Notes: generated by a model not told the origin, from the sequence alone. A stretch of 64,000 nt of DNA from Escherichia coli (GCF_030013205.1 NZ_CP122648.1); one strand, 5' to 3'; positions 14,968 to 50,767 are shown, numbered from the stretch's first letter. Program-made: numbers and translations.

Positions 14968-15168
14968 GTTAATTTCCTCACATCGTGATGCGGATGAGTG
15001 TTTGAAAAAGCACATTTGACCGTGCGAGATGATGGGATTCTATCAACTTCCCGGACTGGTTTTTTGTTACCTGTGGCAAATAATTGCAAACATTCCCAAT
15101 TTGCAAAACGAAATTGTGATGTGGATAACATTTTTGCCCCTGAGCATCGTCAGGGGCGGTTAGTGGAA

Positions 15169-42808: not shown

Positions 42809-44800
42809 ATGTCCTCACGTAAAGAGCTTGCCAATGCTATTCGTGCGCTGAGCATGGACGCAGTACAGAAAGCCAAATCCGGTCACCCGGGTGCCCCTAT
42901 GGGTATGGCTGACATTGCCGAAGTCCTGTGGCGTGATTTCCTGAAACACAACCCGCAGAATCCGTCCTGGGCTGACCGTGACCGCTTCGTGCTGTCCAAC
43001 GGCCACGGCTCCATGCTGATCTACAGCCTGCTGCACCTCACCGGTTACGATCTGCCGATGGAAGAACTGAAAAACTTCCGTCAGCTGCACTCTAAAACTC
43101 CGGGCCACCCGGAAGTGGGTTACACCGCTGGTGTGGAAACCACTACAGGTCCGCTGGGTCAGGGTATTGCCAACGCAGTCGGTATGGCGATTGCAGAAAA
43201 AACGCTGGCGGCGCAGTTTAACCGTCCGGGCCACGACATCGTCGACCACTACACCTACGCCTTCATGGGCGACGGCTGCATGATGGAAGGCATCTCCCAC
43301 GAAGTTTGCTCTCTGGCGGGTACGCTGAAGCTGGGTAAACTGATTGCGTTCTACGATGACAACGGTATCTCTATCGATGGTCACGTTGAAGGCTGGTTCA
43401 CCGACGACACCGCAATGCGTTTCGAAGCTTACGGCTGGCACGTTATTCGCGACATCGACGGTCATGACGCAGCATCCATCAAACGCGCAGTAGAAGAAGC
43501 GCGCGCAGTGACCGACAAACCGTCCCTGCTGATGTGCAAAACCATCATCGGTTTCGGTTCCCCGAACAAAGCCGGTACGCACGACTCCCACGGTGCGCCG
43601 CTGGGCGACGCTGAAATCGCCCTGACCCGCGAACAGCTGGGCTGGAAATATGCACCGTTCGAAATCCCGTCTGAAATCTATGCTCAGTGGGATGCGAAAG
43701 AAGCAGGCCAGGCGAAAGAATCCGCATGGAACGAGAAATTCGCGGCTTACGCCAAAGCTTATCCGCAGGAAGCCGCTGAATTTACCCGCCGTATGAAAGG
43801 CGAAATGCCGTCTGACTTCGACGCCAAAGCGAAAGAATTCATCGCGAAACTGCAGGCTAACCCGGCGAAAATCGCCAGCCGTAAAGCGTCTCAGAATGCT
43901 ATCGAAGCTTTCGGTCCGCTGTTGCCGGAATTCCTCGGCGGCTCCGCTGACCTGGCACCGTCTAACCTGACCCTGTGGTCTGGTTCTAAAGCAATCAACG
44001 AAGATGCTGCGGGTAACTACATCCACTACGGTGTTCGCGAGTTCGGTATGACCGCGATTGCTAACGGTATCTCCTTGCACGGTGGTTTCCTGCCGTACAC
44101 CTCCACCTTCCTGATGTTCGTGGAATACGCACGTAACGCCGTACGTATGGCTGCGCTGATGAAACAGCGTCAGGTTATGGTTTACACCCATGACTCCATC
44201 GGTCTGGGCGAAGATGGCCCGACTCACCAGCCGGTAGAGCAGGTTGCTTCTCTGCGCGTGACCCCGAACATGTCTACATGGCGTCCATGTGACCAGGTTG
44301 AATCTGCAGTGGCATGGAAATACGGTGTTGAGCGTCAGGACGGCCCGACTGCGCTTATCCTCTCCCGTCAGAACCTGGCGCAGCAGGAGCGTACTGAAGA
44401 GCAGCTGGCAAACATCGCGCGCGGTGGTTATGTGCTGAAAGACTGTGCCGGTCAGCCGGAACTGATCTTCATCGCGACCGGTTCGGAAGTTGAACTGGCT
44501 GTTGCTGCCTACGAAAAACTGACTGCCGAAGGCGTGAAAGCGCGCGTGGTTTCCATGCCGTCTACCGACGCATTCGACAAGCAGGATGCGGCTTACCGTG
44601 AATCCGTCCTGCCGAAAGCGGTTACCGCTCGTGTTGCGGTGGAAGCTGGCATTGCTGACTACTGGTACAAGTATGTTGGCCTGAACGGTGCTATCGTCGG
44701 CATGACCACCTTCGGTGAATCTGCTCCGGCAGAGCAACTGTTTGAAGAGTTCGGTTTCACCGTTGACAACGTTGTTGCGAAAGCAAAAGAACTGCTGTAA
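42809..44800 (+). CDS. tktA: transketolase 1
   Basis: 663 aa from [34 protein letters not shown]; six-frame ORF trimmed by 10 aa. Confidence 0.95.
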
Positions 44801-44810
44801 TCGGTAAGAT

Positions 44811-44838
44811 GCAGGGCCGCGAAAGCGGCCCTTTTTTT
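44811..44838. terminator. bidirectional terminator shared by tktA and the convergent SPFH gene
   Basis: GGGCCGC-gaaa-GCGGCCC followed by TTTTTTT; the T-run overlaps the SPFH stop codon. Confidence 0.8.
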
Positions 44839-45745
44839 ACTTAGTAGAGATAAACGGAACTGTACTGCCGGGGATCATGGTATCGGGTAGCTTACCGTCC
44901 CACCGCTCTGCAGTGGTAAGGGCTACAAGTCCGGGATTATCCCGCAGAGCTTCACCGCGCAGGCGGATTGCTTCTGCTTCAGCCGCACTTTTTAAACGAA
45001 TAGTTTCAGCCTCTGCCGCGCCTCTTACGCGAATGGTTTCTGCTTCTGCTTTGGCCGCTGCAAGTTTACTGTCTGCTTCTGCCTGGGCCTGAGTTACCGC
45101 TATTTGCGCCTGGATTTTCTCTGTTTCCAGATTTTGCTTACGCGTGGCAATTGCAACTTCCGCTTTCATTCGGTCTTCAATCGATTTTTCATAAGCATCT
45201 GAAAAATCGATATTCTCGATCTGAACTCCGTCTATCACTACCGGGCCAACAATCGCTTTGCGCATCGCGTTTTGCAGATCCTGCACCAGTTTCGTACGAT
45301 CTTGTACCGCGCTAATGGCGGTATATTGCCCGAAAACGTTCTCCAGTTGGGTTGGCAGCTGGCGGACGATCAGACGCTCTTTTAAAGATTCAATGGTGTT
45401 GTAGGTTGTATAAACTGCGCCAGCTTCTGAAGGTTTAATGTGGAAGCTGACTGATACTGTCATTTGTGCCGGTTGCTGGTCGCGGCTGTAGGCCTGTAAT
45501 CCCTGATAAACCACAGCCTGATTACGCGTGGAAATTTTCTCCACGCTTTCCATAAAAGGGATCTTAAAACCCAGACCCGGCTCGGCAACTTTTACGATTT
45601 TTCCGTAGCGCAGCAAAATGCCGCGTTCACCTTCATTAACGGTGTAATACGAGAGAAATGGCAGCACAACCACGGCAAGCACGCCAATGACGATAGCAAT
45701 AGATTTTTGTGGGCGAAATGAGGTTATTGAAACAGGTGCTTTCAT
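44837..45745 (-). CDS. SPFH/band-7 (prohibitin/HflC-like) membrane protein
   Basis: 302-aa ORF with N-terminal membrane anchor, SPFH core and Ala/Glu-rich repeated C-terminal segment (AAAKAEAETIRVRGAAEAETIRLKSAAEAEAIRLRG). Confidence 0.8.
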   Translation of the reverse strand: MKAPVSITSFRPQKSIAIVIGVLAVVVLPFLSYYTVNEGERGILLRYGKIVKVAEPGLGFKIPFMESVEKISTRNQAVVYQGLQAYSRDQQPAQMTVSVSFHIKPSEAGAVYTTYNTIESLKERLIVRQLPTQLENVFGQYTAISAVQDRTKLVQDLQNAMRKAIVGPVVIDGVQIENIDFSDAYEKSIEDRMKAEVAIATRKQNLETEKIQAQIAVTQAQAEADSKLAAAKAEAETIRVRGAAEAETIRLKSAAEAEAIRLRGEALRDNPGLVALTTAERWDGKLPDTMIPGSTVPFISTK

Positions 45746-46122
45746 GACAATCTTCCTTGAGTAAAGTGTGGGAATATGTCACATGAGGTGAGGAGAAAAC
45801 AGCCGACAGGTGAGAATTCAGAATCTATAAAGGGGTATAGCGAAAAAACATTGCATTAGAAAAGTATGCTTTCGGACATTCAATAAATAAATAGAGACAT
45901 GCATCACAAATACAATAACAAACAAAATGTTGATTTTGTGATAAACATAACAAATACAAAGTTGACTTTGTAAGTATTTATTTCATGTTGTTGTTATTTA
46001 AAGTTTTATTATTTTTGTTCATGGGGTTTTTCTTCTCGCGTACCCAATTGCTTTCATTAAACCGCACGAGTATTTTATTTTTACCGCCGGACGGTACCAT
46101 AAAAATAAAATAAGGATAATTT

Positions 46123-46566
46123 ATGCGGCTTAGTGATTATTTTCCAGAATCATCAATCTCAGTTATACATTCAGCAAAAGATTGGCAGGAAGCTATCGAT
46201 TTCTCGATGGCATCATTGCTGGATAAAAACTATATCAGCGAGAATTACATTCAGGCAATTAAAGATTCCACCATTAACAATGGCCCTTATTATATTCTCG
46301 CGCCAGGTGTGGCAATGCCTCATGCGCGACCGGAATGTGGGGCGCTTAAAACCGGGATGTCTTTGACGTTACTTAAACAAGGCGTTTATTTTCCGGGGAA
46401 TGACGAACCGATTAAATTACTCATCGGGCTTTCTGCTGCCGATGCCGATTCGCACATTGGCGCTATTCAGGCGTTAAGTGAATTACTGTGCGAAGAAGAA
46501 ATACTCGAACAACTCTTAACAGCATCATCAGAAAAACAATTAGCGGACATTATCAGCTGCGGATAA
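46123..46566 (+). CDS. cmtB: mannitol-type PTS enzyme IIA (cryptic)
   Basis: 147-aa ORF; PTS EIIA (mannitol/fructose type) fold; precedes cmtA. Confidence 0.85.
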   Translation: MRLSDYFPESSISVIHSAKDWQEAIDFSMASLLDKNYISENYIQAIKDSTINNGPYYILAPGVAMPHARPECGALKTGMSLTLLKQGVYFPGNDEPIKLLIGLSAADADSHIGAIQALSELLCEEEILEQLLTASSEKQLADIISCG

Positions 46567-46593: not shown

Positions 46594-47982
46594 ATGGAAA
46601 ACAAGTCTGCTCGTGCAAAGGTCCAGGCTTTTGGGGGCTTTTTGACGGCAATGGTCATCCCCAATATCGGTGCTTTTATTGCCTGGGGTTTTATTACTGC
46701 ATTATTTATTCCTACTGGTTGGCTGCCGAATGAACATTTCGCCAAAATTGTCGGCCCGATGATTACCTATTTATTGCCCGTGATGATTGGTTCTACCGGT
46801 GGTCATCTGGTCGGCGGTAAACGCGGCGCGGTCATGGGCGGAATTGGTACGATTGGTGTGATCGTCGGCGCTGAAATCCCGATGTTCCTTGGCTCGATGA
46901 TTATGGGGCCGCTCGGTGGTCTGGTGATTAAATATATCGACAAGTCGCTGGAAAAACGCATACCTGCTGGTTTTGAGATGGTTATCAATAACTTCTCATT
47001 AGGTATCGCGGGGATGCTCCTTTGTCTGCTGGGTTTTGAAGTGATCGGCCCGGCGGTGTTAATTGCCAATACTTTCGTCAAAGAGTGTATCGAGGCGCTG
47101 GTACATGCGGGTTATCTGCCTCTGCTGTCAGTCATCAATGAACCGGCGAAAGTGCTTTTCCTTAATAATGCGATCGATCAGGGCGTCTATTATCCGCTGG
47201 GAATGCAACAGGCTTCGGTTAACGGTAAATCCATCTTCTTTATGGTGGCCTCTAACCCAGGTCCGGGCCTGGGGCTGCTGCTGGCGTTTACCTTGTTTGG
47301 TAAAGGGATGAGTAAACGTTCTGCGCCCGGGGCGATGATTATTCACTTCCTCGGTGGGATCCACGAACTGTATTTCCCATATGTGCTGATGAAGCCGCTG
47401 ACTATTATTGCCATGATTGCGGGCGGTATGTCTGGCACCTGGATGTTTAACTTACTGGACGGTGGTCTGGTGGCTGGCCCAAGTCCGGGGTCTATCTTTG
47501 CTTACCTGGCGCTGACGCCGAAAGGTTCGTTCCTGGCGACAATTGCCGGTGTTACGGTAGGTACCCTGGTGTCCTTTGCTATCACTTCGCTGATACTGAA
47601 GATGGAAAAAACGGTGGAAACGGAGAGCGAAGATGAGTTTGCTCAGTCAGCCAATGCGGTTAAGGCGATGAAACAAGAGGGTGCATTCTCGTTAAGCCGG
47701 GTTAAGCGTATCGCCTTTGTTTGCGATGCGGGGATGGGCTCCAGCGCGATGGGCGCAACCACCTTCCGTAAACGTCTGGAAAAAGCGGGGCTGGCAATTG
47801 AAGTAAAACATTACGCGATAGAAAACGTGCCTGCGGATGCCGATATCGTCGTCACTCACGCAAGTCTTGAAGGTCGTGTAAAACGCGTAACCGATAAACC
47901 GCTGATATTGATTAATAACTATATTGGCGATCCGAAACTCGACACTTTATTTAATCAATTAACCGCCGAACATAAAAACTGA
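46594..47982 (+). CDS. cmtA: mannitol-type PTS enzyme IICB (cryptic)
   Basis: 462-aa ORF, membrane IIC domain plus C-terminal IIB. Confidence 0.85.
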   Translation: MENKSARAKVQAFGGFLTAMVIPNIGAFIAWGFITALFIPTGWLPNEHFAKIVGPMITYLLPVMIGSTGGHLVGGKRGAVMGGIGTIGVIVGAEIPMFLGSMIMGPLGGLVIKYIDKSLEKRIPAGFEMVINNFSLGIAGMLLCLLGFEVIGPAVLIANTFVKECIEALVHAGYLPLLSVINEPAKVLFLNNAIDQGVYYPLGMQQASVNGKSIFFMVASNPGPGLGLLLAFTLFGKGMSKRSAPGAMIIHFLGGIHELYFPYVLMKPLTIIAMIAGGMSGTWMFNLLDGGLVAGPSPGSIFAYLALTPKGSFLATIAGVTVGTLVSFAITSLILKMEKTVETESEDEFAQSANAVKAMKQEGAFSLSRVKRIAFVCDAGMGSSAMGATTFRKRLEKAGLAIEVKHYAIENVPADADIVVTHASLEGRVKRVTDKPLILINNYIGDPKLDTLFNQLTAEHKN

Positions 47983-50257: not shown

Positions 50258-50767
50258 ATGGCGACGCTGACAGAAGATGATGTGCTTGAGCAACTGGATG
50301 CACAGGACAATTTATTTTCATTTATGAAAACTGCGCATTCTATTTTGCTCCAGGGGATACGCCAGTTTCTGCCGTCGCTGTTTGTCGATAATGATGAAGA
50401 GATCGTCGAATATGCAGTGAAGCCGTTACTCGCCCAAAGCGGCCCGCTTGACGATATTGATGTTGCACTGCGTTTGATTTACGCGCTGGGGAAAATGGAT
50501 AAATGGTTGTACGCCGATATCACGCATTTTTCCCAGTTTTGGCATTACCTGAACGAACAGGATGAAACGCCCGGATTTGCCGATGATATAACCTGGGATT
50601 TTATCAGCAACGTCAATAGCATAATCCGCAATGCGAGTCTCTATGACGCGTTGAAAGCGATGAAATTCGCCGATTTCGCCGTCTGGTCAGAGGCGCGTTT
50701 TAGCGGGATGGTCAAAACGGCGCTGACGCTGGCAGTAACGACCACCTTAAAGGAATTAACGCCGTGA
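50258..50767 (+). CDS. yggD: YggD (MtlR-like repressor family; also called FumE)
   Basis: 169-aa ORF MATLTEDDVLEQLDAQDNLFSF. Confidence 0.8.
   Translation: MATLTEDDVLEQLDAQDNLFSFMKTAHSILLQGIRQFLPSLFVDNDEEIVEYAVKPLLAQSGPLDDIDVALRLIYALGKMDKWLYADITHFSQFWHYLNEQDETPGFADDITWDFISNVNSIIRNASLYDALKAMKFADFAVWSEARFSGMVKTALTLAVTTTLKELTP

What the first reader, a model, noticed from the sequence alone, without database searches (positions are those of the whole stretch)
45905..45980. Direct repeats in the divergent SPFH-cmtB promoter region
CAAATACAA...TTGATTTTGT (45906..45939) and CAAATACAAAGTTGACTTTGT (45950..45970) form an imperfect direct repeat in a 377-bp AT-rich intergenic region. These are plausible operator sites, and the cmt operon is considered cryptic in K-12.
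Basis: seen in the sequence. Interest (0 to 1): 0.3.

Follow-up and report, generated by a model that had tools for sequence, protein, structure and literature searches.

The report
Paired CRP sites before cmtB
The repeat in front of the E. coli "cryptic mannitol" operon marks two docking sites for the global sugar regulator CRP, set exactly 44 bases apart; a 2026 study reported this spacing as unique to the main mannitol operon, where it recruits a repressor that cannot bind DNA itself.

Summary
The repeat is real. The 14-mers CATCACAAATACAA and CATAACAAATACAA lie 44 bp apart, and two 25-mers lie 32 bp apart (21/25 matches, reached by 0 of 1000 shuffles).

The extended repeat and its two palindromes occur only in this allele lineage. 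What is conserved is a pair of CRP-like sites: A at 45893-45908 and B at 45937-45952, with centres 44 bp apart.

In 35 orthologous cmtB promoters from about ten genera, 44 bp is the best spacing in 30. The 28-bp spacer varies freely. Providencia and Buttiauxella also show 44 bp, Serratia 45, and Yersinia 44 plus 45.

K-12 has the same pair in a very different allele. CRP binding and CRP-dependent activation of the K-12-type cmtB promoter are published.

A spacing of 43-46 bp is what recruits MtlR, which has no DNA-binding domain, onto CRP at the mtl operator. That study called the mtl operator unique in E. coli.

The cmt operon encodes YggD, an MtlR paralogue annotated "fumarase E". YggD keeps both experimentally critical CRP-contact residues. 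CmtA keeps the IIB loop that MtlR docks on.

Best reading: a second mtl-type, CRP-anchored anti-activation operator. The CRP pair is well supported. Recruitment of YggD or MtlR is inferred and untested.

The parts
45893..45908 (.). CRP-like site A (AGAGAcatgcaTCACA), centre 45900.5.
   Evidence: It scores 10.9 bits with a matrix built from 102 ChIP-seq CRP sites, the 26th percentile of those sites. It is one of only 7 sites at or above 10.9 bits in the 64-kb window. The half-site columns are conserved in 35 orthologues; G53, T61, C64 and A65 are invariant. The K-12-type equivalent, CGTGTTGTAGATCACA, is the motif under the ETEC CRP ChIP-seq peak at cmtB.
45909..45936 (.). 28-bp spacer between the two CRP cores. 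Its length is fixed but its sequence is free.
   Evidence: There are 32 distinct spacer sequences among 35 orthologues. Mean pairwise identity is 0.49, against 0.77 for the half-sites. Mean information is 0.75 bits, against 1.4-1.5 bits for the half-sites.
45937..45952 (.). CRP-like site B (TGTGAtaaacaTAACA), centre 45944.5, 44 bp from site A. Copy 2 of the repeat starts in its right half-site.
   Evidence: It scores 13.0 bits, the 53rd percentile of ChIP-seq sites. T94, G95 and C108 are invariant in 35 orthologues. A and B form the only pair of sites at or above 8 bits at any spacing from 20 to 120 bp in the whole window.
45902..45939 (+). It contains the palindrome ACAAAATGTTGATTTTGT (45922-39).
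   Evidence: The palindrome is perfect only in the window and one close allele.
45946..45971 (+). The palindrome TACAAAGTTGACTTTGTA (45955-72) overlaps it and runs one base past its end.
   Evidence: The palindrome is perfect (8/8 arm pairs) only in the window allele and 6/8 in alleles about 95% identical.
45962..45967 (+). TTGACT box. The TTG is invariant and starts 17.5 bp after the centre of site B. It may be a -35 element of a distal cmtB promoter.
   Evidence: TTG is present in 35/35 orthologues at the same distance from site B. Providencia and Buttiauxella have TTGACA at the same offset. An A 23 nt after the first T of the box (window 45985) is present in 33/35. No TSS data were available, so the function is inferred.
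45881..45883 (.). Invariant CAA, the mirror image of the TTG box, 17.5-19.5 bp outside the centre of site A.
   Evidence: It is present in 35/35 orthologues, with or without the SPFH gene, and also in Serratia and Buttiauxella. Its function is unexplained.
46048..46076 (+). Conserved sigma-70-like core promoter candidate: TTGCTT, 17 bp, TATTTT.
   Evidence: The block TTG(A/C)TTTC...GTATTTT(A/G)TTTTT is conserved across genera. At 7 of 12 consensus matches it falls below the scan tool's threshold. The TSS has not been determined.
46123..46566 (+). cmtB (PTS EIIA, mannitol family), the first gene of the operon.
46594..47982 (+). cmtA (PTS EIICB). The IIB active-site loop around Cys377 is identical to the MtlA Cys384 loop that MtlR docks on.
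   Evidence: CmtA is 52% identical to MtlA, and the CDAGMGSSAMGA loop is identical. The docking site is described in PMC13421365.
50258..50767 (+). yggD, annotated fumE. It is an MtlR-family protein without a DNA-binding domain and the candidate anti-activator.
   Evidence: It matches Pfam PF05068 (MtlR) over its full length, E = 4.6e-52. R147 and L158 align with MtlR R167 and L178 and are invariant in 16 orthologues plus MtlR. A solved structure exists as 3C8G.
44837..45745 (-). Divergent SPFH/prohibitin-family gene. It is present in about a third of E. coli genomes and only in Escherichia lineages.

Best explanation
The repeat sits on the upstream control element of the cmtB-cmtA-yggP-yggF-yggD-yggC operon. 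That element is two binding sites for cAMP-CRP, A at 45893-45908 and B at 45937-45952, with centres exactly 44 bp apart.

The GTTGAC half of copy 2 is a separate conserved TTG box, possibly a -35 element. The rest of the similarity, including the palindromes, is specific to this allele lineage and probably has no function of its own.

Shown or published: CRP binds this promoter in the K-12-type allele and activates it.

Inferred: two CRP dimers 44 bp apart present the geometry that, at the mtl operator, recruits a dimer of MtlR. MtlR has no DNA-binding domain and blocks CRP-dependent activation. Here the recruited protein would be the operon's own MtlR paralogue YggD, MtlR itself, or both.

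Also inferred: repression would be lifted when the dephosphorylated IIB domain of CmtA (for YggD) or of MtlA (for MtlR) sequesters the repressor at the membrane during substrate transport.
For: Method control:
- A CRP matrix built from 102 ChIP-seq sites, with the cmtB and mtl sites left out, recovers exactly the five published mtl sites at spacings of 43, 44, 73 and 44 bp.

The pair in E. coli:
- The matrix gives 10.9 and 13.0 bits for sites A and B in the window.
- This is the only pair at or above 8 bits at any spacing from 20 to 120 bp in 64 kb.
- K-12 MG1655, whose allele is only about 55% identical here, also has exactly two sites at or above 8 bits, 44 bp apart.

Conservation:
- Across 35 orthologous promoters, 44 bp is the best spacing in 30. 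The mean best pair score at 44 bp is 8.85 bits, against -4.8 +/- 1.6 bits over all spacings.
- The spacer sequence is unconstrained.
- The distance from the sites to the ATG varies, but the A-B distance does not.
- In other families the same six-gene operon sits in other genomic contexts. It still carries pairs at 44 bp (Providencia, Buttiauxella), 45 bp (Serratia), or 44 plus 45 bp (Yersinia).

Published experiments on the K-12-type allele:
- Genomic SELEX found CRP binding at cmtB, and a cmtB-lacZ fusion loses activity in a crp mutant (PMC3105977).
- A CRP ChIP-seq peak at cmtB in ETEC has a motif that is the reverse complement of K-12-type site A (PMC4287617).

The link to MtlR:
- MtlR binds only when two CRP sites are 43-46 bp apart, best at 44-45 bp, whatever the spacer sequence (PMC13421365).
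- YggD is a full-length MtlR-family protein.
- The two residues whose mutation abolishes the MtlR-CRP complex, R167 and L178, are among only 24 invariant columns in an alignment of MtlR with 16 YggD orthologues.
- The CmtA IIB active-site loop is identical to the one MtlR docks on.
Against: - No experiment shows YggD or MtlR on the cmt promoter.
- The 2026 paper states that the 43-46 bp spacing is unique to the mtl operator in E. coli. That statement was based on curated CRP sites.
- YggD is only 32% identical to MtlR in the pairwise alignment (24-32% across YggD orthologues). The dimer C-terminal helix angle, which that paper shows can abolish complex formation even when residues and spacing are conserved, could not be assessed here.
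- YggD is annotated as fumarase E.
- CRP binding is shown experimentally only for the K-12-type allele, and only one motif (site A) was reported under the ChIP peak.
- Site B is weak in some lineages: 2.0 bits in E. coli AHB29, and TGCAA instead of TGTGA in many Citrobacter.
- The transcription start is unknown. If the TTG box is the -35 element, site B lies near -52, which from my own recollection of the CRP literature is not a classical activating position. If the conserved proximal promoter is used, the sites lie near -138 and -182.
Confidence: 0.6

Rival explanations
1. The two CRP sites act only as a tandem activator module, a class III CRP-dependent promoter. The fixed 44-bp spacing serves CRP-CRP-RNA polymerase geometry or DNA bending. 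No MtlR-family protein is recruited, and YggD does something else, for example acts as an enzyme.
For: CRP activation of cmtB is the only regulation actually demonstrated. YggD is annotated fumarase E in RefSeq. The far-upstream mtl CRP sites are themselves needed for activation.
Against: This reading does not explain why the spacing is the same 44-45 bp that recruits MtlR. It does not explain why an MtlR paralogue is always part of the operon across four families. It does not explain why exactly the two CRP-contact residues are invariant in that paralogue.
Confidence: 0.27
2. The direct repeats or palindromes are classical operator sites for a sequence-specific DNA-binding repressor.
For: Two perfect palindromes lie about 33-34 bp apart (ACAAAATGTTGATTTTGT and TACAAAGTTGACTTTGTA). 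The repeat scores better than shuffled sequence.
Against: The palindromes are perfect only in this allele lineage and degrade in alleles about 95% identical. They are absent in K-12 and in other genera. No protein with a DNA-binding domain is encoded in the operon. The conserved columns are the CRP half-sites and the TTG and CAA triplets, not the palindrome arms.
Confidence: 0.05
3. A CytR-type repression complex, in which a DNA-binding anti-activator sits between tandem CRP sites as at deoP2.
For: There are tandem CRP sites, and many species have TTGCAA-like sequence at the inner edge of site B (TTTGCAAT). CytR is cited as the precedent for CRP-bound repressors.
Against: From my own knowledge, CytR promoters have CRP sites about 52-53 bp apart, not 44. 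The TTGCAA-like sequence is absent in the Escherichia alleles, which have TGTGA or TGTAA instead. The spacer is not conserved.
Confidence: 0.04
4. The repeat is a remnant of a local duplication or slippage in AT-rich DNA and has no regulatory meaning at all.
For: The sequence is low in complexity and rich in ACAA and TTGT. The extended repeat is restricted to one lineage.
Against: This may hold for the extra similarity. It cannot hold for the CRP cores, their spacing or the TTG box, which are conserved over at least four families of Enterobacterales and are bound by CRP in vivo.
Confidence: 0.04

Closest known systems
The E. coli mtlADR operator: five CRP sites, with pairs 43-44 bp apart that recruit MtlR (Lee et al., NAR 2026, PMC13421365)
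   Same: Both have adjacent CRP sites with a 44-bp centre-to-centre distance and a spacer of unconstrained sequence. Both belong to an operon for a mannitol-family PTS transporter. Both operons include an MtlR-family protein without a DNA-binding domain that retains the R167 and L178 equivalents. The IIB phospho-cysteine loop is identical. CRP activates both promoters.
   Different: The cmt promoter usually has only one pair, not five sites; some genera have a third site at 42, 44 or 45 bp. The distance from the proximal site to the -35-like box is 17.5 bp, against 23.5 bp at mtl as I measured it. The regulator is a 169-aa paralogue about 32% identical to MtlR and annotated as an enzyme. No binding or induction data exist. 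The paper does not mention cmt or yggD and calls the mtl spacing unique.
CytR-CRP nucleoprotein repression complexes (deoP2, cdd, nupG)
   Same: An anti-activator uses two DNA-bound CRP dimers as its platform and masks their activating surfaces.
   Different: CytR is a LacI-family DNA binder with its own boxes, and its CRP sites are about 52-53 bp apart (my own knowledge). Here the spacing is 44 bp, no conserved inter-site box exists, and the candidate protein has no DNA-binding domain.
Class III (tandem-site) CRP-dependent promoters such as malK or acs
   Same: Several CRP sites lie upstream of one promoter, and activation depends on CRP.
   Different: Spacings differ; malK has 34 bp. No spacing-specific co-repressor is known for those promoters.

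Membership tests
cAMP-CRP binding site | Match to the TGTGA-N6-TCACA matrix within the range of sites bound in vivo | tested here: met
   Site A scores 10.9 bits and site B 13.0 bits, the 26th and 53rd percentiles of 102 ChIP-seq sites. Sites at or above 10.9 bits occur about once per 9-10 kb in the window.
cAMP-CRP binding site | Experimental CRP occupancy and CRP-dependent promoter activity | not testable with these tools
   This is published for the K-12-type allele only: SELEX and a lacZ fusion (PMC3105977), and a ChIP-seq peak whose motif is K-12-type site A (PMC4287617). The window's SPFH-type allele has not been assayed.
cAMP-CRP binding site | Half-sites conserved in orthologous promoters while neighbouring sequence drifts | tested here: met
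   Half-site columns carry 1.39 and 1.48 bits, against 0.75 bits for the spacer. The key G, C and T positions are invariant in 35 orthologues.
mtl-type CRP-anchored MtlR operator | Two adjacent CRP sites 43-46 bp apart centre to centre (optimum 44-45 bp) | tested here: met
   The spacing is 44 bp in the window and in K-12. It is the best spacing in 30 of 35 orthologues, and 44 or 45 bp in four more distant genera.
mtl-type CRP-anchored MtlR operator | Spacer length matters but spacer sequence does not | tested here: met
   The spacer is 28 bp in every orthologue. There are 32 distinct sequences among 35, with mean identity 0.49.
mtl-type CRP-anchored MtlR operator | A cognate MtlR-family protein without a DNA-binding domain, encoded with the operon | tested here: met
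   YggD matches PF05068 over its full length. It lies in the same six-gene operon in Escherichia, Yersinia, Providencia, Serratia and Buttiauxella.
mtl-type CRP-anchored MtlR operator | CRP-contact residues R167 and L178 of MtlR retained | tested here: met
   YggD R147 and L158 align with them. Both columns are invariant across MtlR and 16 YggD orthologues.
mtl-type CRP-anchored MtlR operator | Dimer C-terminal helix angle near 138 degrees, compatible with two CRP dimers 44 bp apart | not testable with these tools
   This needs a dimer model or measurement on the 3C8G crystal dimer. Only monomer prediction is available here. The paper shows this feature can break complex formation on its own.
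mtl-type CRP-anchored MtlR operator | A ternary repressor-CRP-DNA complex forms, and the repressor mutant is derepressed | not testable with these tools
   This requires gel shifts and qRT-PCR. No such data were found in the paper library.
mtl-type CRP-anchored MtlR operator | Release by the dephosphorylated IIB domain of the cognate PTS transporter | tested here: inconclusive
   The CmtA IIB loop around Cys377 (CDAGMGSSAMGA) is identical to the MtlA Cys384 loop that MtlR docks on. The YggD side of the interface was not examined, and no binding data exist.
Classical palindromic or direct-repeat operator of a DNA-binding repressor | The dyad or repeat is conserved in orthologous promoters | tested here: not met
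   Palindrome 2 is perfect only in the window allele. Palindrome 1 is perfect only in the window and one close allele. Elsewhere most arm-pair scores are 0-5 of 7 or 8.
Classical palindromic or direct-repeat operator of a DNA-binding repressor | A cognate DNA-binding regulator is encoded nearby | tested here: not met
   The operon genes are EIIA, EIICB, a Zn-dehydrogenase, a GlpX-type phosphatase, an MtlR-family protein and a kinase-like protein. None has a DNA-binding domain.
CytR-CRP tandem promoter | CRP sites about 52-53 bp apart with CytR boxes between them | tested here: not met
   The spacing is 44 bp and the spacer has no conserved motif. The 52-53 bp criterion is from my own knowledge.
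Known RNA family (Rfam) | Match to a covariance model in the intergenic region | tested here: not met
   No match with E <= 1 in 45600-46300 on either strand.

The most novel reading that the evidence does not exclude
YggD, now annotated "fumarase E", is a second CRP-anchored anti-activator. It docks on the 44-bp CRP pair of its own operon and is released by dephosphorylated CmtA. This would give Enterobacterales two parallel MtlR-type circuits.

MtlR recognises only the CRP-CRP geometry, so it should also bind the cmt operator. That would explain why cmt looks cryptic. In mtlA mutants, unsequestered MtlR would lock cmt off, so cmt could never substitute for mtl.
Probability: 0.4. Interest if true: 0.72.

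Novelty: new member of a known kind. Interest (0 to 1): 0.6.

Why it matters
The mechanism by which MtlR represses without touching DNA was described only in 2026, with a single known target and an explicit claim that the operator geometry is unique in E. coli. A second, deeply conserved operator of the same geometry would matter in four ways.

- It would show the mechanism is a small family rather than a one-off.
- It would give a concrete, testable function to YggD, whose "fumarase E" annotation would then be misleading.
- It offers a testable explanation for the roughly 30-year-old label "cryptic" on the cmt operon.
- It predicts cross-talk between the mtl and cmt systems through a shared CRP geometry.

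It also illustrates that a regulatory architecture (spacing) can be conserved while the sequence diverges to about 50% identity, even between alleles within one species.

Tried and rejected
- **Sigma-70 and terminator scans of 45600-46250.** Nothing reached the tool's threshold. Promoter assignments therefore rest on conservation only and stay tentative.
- **Rfam search of the intergenic region.** No hit.
- **The 42-nt hairpin before the cmtB ribosome-binding site (46071-46112).** RNAalifold on 18 orthologues gave no consensus pairs. I dropped it as a conserved RNA structure; the flanks are conserved as sequence.
- **Palindromic-operator reading.** Rejected because the palindromes are not conserved.
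- **CytR-type complex.** Rejected on spacing and the lack of a conserved inter-site motif.
- **Placing the CRP sites relative to a transcription start.** Two candidate promoters were found. One is the TTGACT box with a weak -10. The other is the conserved proximal TTGCTT-17-TATTTT. I could not decide between them, and no TSS data turned up in the papers searched.
- **Small ORF at 45985-46113 (42 aa).** Its ATG is not conserved in a close allele, so I treated it as spurious.
- **Literature searches linking cmt or yggD to MtlR-CRP.** Nothing found.
- **Modelling a YggD-CRP complex.** Not attempted, because only single-chain prediction is available.

Full report
**Locus.** The window is E. coli and is 100% identical to strain K_EC180 across the 471-bp query (window 45700-46170). 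The gene order is:
- tkt (+, 42779-44800)
- an SPFH/prohibitin-family gene (-, 44837-45745)
- a 377-bp intergenic region of 32% GC
- cmtB, cmtA, yggP, yggF (glpX-like), yggD (annotated fumE) and yggC

Only 1755 of 5426 complete E. coli genomes carry the SPFH gene with this intergenic region. K-12-type genomes match only from window position 46045 onward and have tkt directly upstream of cmtB.

**Observation.** CATCACAAATACAA (45902-15) and CATAACAAATACAA (45946-59) match at 13 of 14 positions with a 44-bp period. Two 25-mers (45915-39 and 45947-71) match at 21 of 25 positions with a 32-bp period. Copy 1 therefore carries a 12-nt insertion.

The 25-mer score was reached in 0 of 1000 dinucleotide shuffles, and the 14-mer score in 24 of 1000. 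Each copy also holds a perfect palindrome: ACAAAATGTTGATTTTGT and TACAAAGTTGACTTTGTA.

**What the repeat covers.** The 44-bp-period part begins in TCACA and TAACA, and TGTGA lies just upstream of the second copy. Read as CRP sites, these give:
- Site A: AGAGAcatgcaTCACA, 45893-45908
- Site B: TGTGAtaaacaTAACA, 45937-45952
- Centres 44 bp apart

I built a CRP weight matrix from 102 ChIP-seq-derived 16-mers in Table 1 of Haycocks et al. 2015 (PMC4287617), leaving out the cmtB and mtl entries.

As a positive control, the matrix at 8 bits or more finds exactly the five published CRP sites of the K-12 mtl control region. Their spacings come out as 43, 44, 73 and 44 bp, as reported in PMC13421365.

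Sites A and B score 10.9 and 13.0 bits, the 26th and 53rd percentiles of the ChIP-seq sites. Only seven sites in the 64-kb window reach 10.9 bits. A and B form the only pair at or above 8 bits at any spacing from 20 to 120 bp.

**Conservation.** The K-12-type allele is only about 55% identical across this stretch. It still has exactly two sites at or above 8 bits: CGTGTTGTAGATCACA and TGTAATATGCATCACG. They are 44 bp apart and lie at the same distance from the ATG.

I collected 35 orthologous cmtB upstream regions. They come from Escherichia species, Citrobacter, Salmonella arizonae and diarizonae, Raoultella, Lelliottia, Superficieibacter, Silvania, Phytobacter, Huaxiibacter and an Enterobacter MAG. 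An unbiased spacing scan over 17-120 bp gave these results:
- 44 bp is the best spacing in 30 of 35 regions.
- The mean best pair score at 44 bp is 8.85 bits, against -4.8 +/- 1.6 bits over all spacings.
- In four of the five exceptions the best pair joins site A to a third site 42 bp upstream. The fifth (Superficieibacter 1612) pairs site A with a site 89 bp upstream, and its site B is weak.

The half-site columns carry 1.4-1.5 bits and the 28-bp spacer 0.75 bits. There are 32 distinct spacers among the 35 regions, with mean identity 0.49. The distance from site B to the ATG varies from 164.5 to 193.5 bp, while the A-B distance never changes.

Outside Enterobacteriaceae, the same six-gene operon occurs in other genomic contexts and still carries CRP pairs:

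| Genus | Spacing |
|---|---|
| Providencia | 44 bp |
| Buttiauxella | 44 bp |
| Serratia | 45 bp |
| Yersinia intermedia | 44 bp and 45 bp (three sites) |

**Published experiments.** CRP binds the K-12 cmtB promoter in genomic SELEX, and a cmtB-lacZ fusion loses activity in a crp mutant (PMC3105977). CRP ChIP-seq in ETEC H10407 gives a peak at cmtB with the motif TGTGATCTACAACACG. That motif is the reverse complement of K-12-type site A. CRP control of cmtB is therefore known. The two-site, 44-bp architecture has not been pointed out in any paper I could find.

**Why 44 bp matters.** Lee et al. (NAR 2026, PMC13421365) showed the following:
- Docking requires CRP sites 43-46 bp apart, best at 44-45 bp, whatever the spacer sequence.
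- Inserting sequence to widen a 34-bp malK pair to 44 bp is enough to create binding.
- R167E or L178A in MtlR abolishes the complex.
- Dephosphorylated IIB of MtlA (the Cys384 loop) sequesters MtlR at the membrane.

The paper does not mention cmt or yggD.

**Match to the cmt operon.** The operon encodes YggD, which matches Pfam MtlR over its full length and has a solved structure, 3C8G. In an alignment of MtlR with 16 YggD orthologues reaching Yersinia and Providencia, only 24 columns are invariant. R167 and L178 are among them, corresponding to YggD R147 and L158. The CmtA IIB loop around Cys377 (CDAGMGSSAMGA) is identical to the MtlA loop.

**Interpretation.**
- Shown here or in the literature: the repeat overlies a conserved pair of CRP sites with a fixed 44-bp spacing, and CRP binds and activates the K-12-type promoter.
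- Inferred: this geometry recruits an MtlR-family dimer (YggD, MtlR or both) that blocks CRP-dependent activation.
- Inferred: release occurs through the dephosphorylated IIB domain of the cognate transporter.

This would make cmt a second member of the mtl-type, CRP-anchored operator class. The main rival is that the pair only activates. I give the anti-activation model about 0.6 and the activation-only model about 0.27.

**Open points.**
- The transcription start is unknown.
- An invariant TTG (45962-64; TTGACT here, TTGACA in Providencia and Buttiauxella) starts 17.5 bp after the centre of site B. An A 23 nt after the first T of that box (window 45985) is present in 33 of 35 regions. This looks like a -35 and -10 pair, but it would put site B near -52.
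- A second, well-conserved sigma-70-like element lies closer to the gene: TTGCTT, 17 bp, TATTTT (46048-76).
- An invariant CAA (45881-83) mirrors the TTG box on the far side of site A, even in genomes with no divergent gene. I cannot explain it.
- Site B is degenerate in a few lineages, for example E. coli AHB29 at 2.0 bits.
- The YggD dimer geometry, which the 2026 paper shows to be decisive, could not be tested.

Noticed in passing
window 45881-45883 and 45962-45964: CAA and TTG are invariant in 35/35 orthologues. They are mirror-symmetric about the midpoint of the CRP pair, each 17.5-19.5 bp outside a CRP centre. CAA is conserved even where no divergent gene exists. TTG may be a -35 element; CAA is unexplained.
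   Followed up: partly
window 44801-46044 versus L002 3766-4000 and L040 (K-12): E. coli carries two very different alleles here. About a third of genomes (1755 of 5426) have an SPFH/prohibitin gene between tkt and cmtB. The homologous part of the promoter region is only about 55% identical between the alleles, although the flanking sequence (the last ~80 bp upstream of cmtB and the start of the gene) is 98-99% identical. The SPFH gene is seen only in Escherichia lineages (E. albertii, E. whittamii, some E. coli). Other genera have tkt directly upstream, so the SPFH gene looks like an insertion.
   Followed up: partly
window 46071-46112: A 42-nt inverted repeat (TATTTTATTTTTACCG CCGGA CGGTACCATAAAAATAAAATA) ends at the cmtB Shine-Dalgarno sequence. 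Its AT-rich arms are conserved across genera and its centre varies. RNAalifold found no consensus structure. The left arm overlaps a conserved -10-like TATTTT.
   Followed up: partly
window 46048-46076: A conserved sigma-70-like promoter candidate (TTGCTT, 17 bp, TATTTT) lies about 50 bp upstream of the cmtB ATG. It is conserved from Escherichia to Lelliottia. If it is used, the CRP pair lies about 138 and 182 bp upstream of the start.
   Followed up: partly
window 50258-50767 (yggD/fumE): RefSeq names this MtlR-family protein "fumarase E". Other sources call its orthologues "MltR family transcriptional regulator". Its operon context and the conserved CRP-contact residues suggest the enzyme name may be misleading.
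   Followed up: partly
L024, L028, L031, L027, L026, L023 (Lelliottia, Huaxiibacter, Phytobacter, Raoultella BIGb, Enterobacter MAG) and L041 (Yersinia): These genera have a third CRP-like site upstream of site A. It lies 42 bp upstream in the Lelliottia group. In Yersinia intermedia three sites are spaced 44 and 45 bp apart, which resembles the multi-site mtl operator.
   Followed up: partly
window 15115-15130 and 35495-35510: These are the two strongest CRP-matrix hits in the window, TGTGATGTGGATAACA and TGTGAAGCAAATCACA. They are identical to the ETEC ChIP-seq motifs listed for nupG and, as reverse complement, for galP. Both were in the training set, and I did not check their gene context in the window.
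   Followed up: no
L002 7227-8126 (E. coli D4): The glpX-like yggF gene of the cmt operon is annotated as a pseudogene with an internal stop in strain D4. Several truncated or fused YggD proteins appear among E. coli database entries. This hints at decay of the operon in some strains.
   Followed up: no
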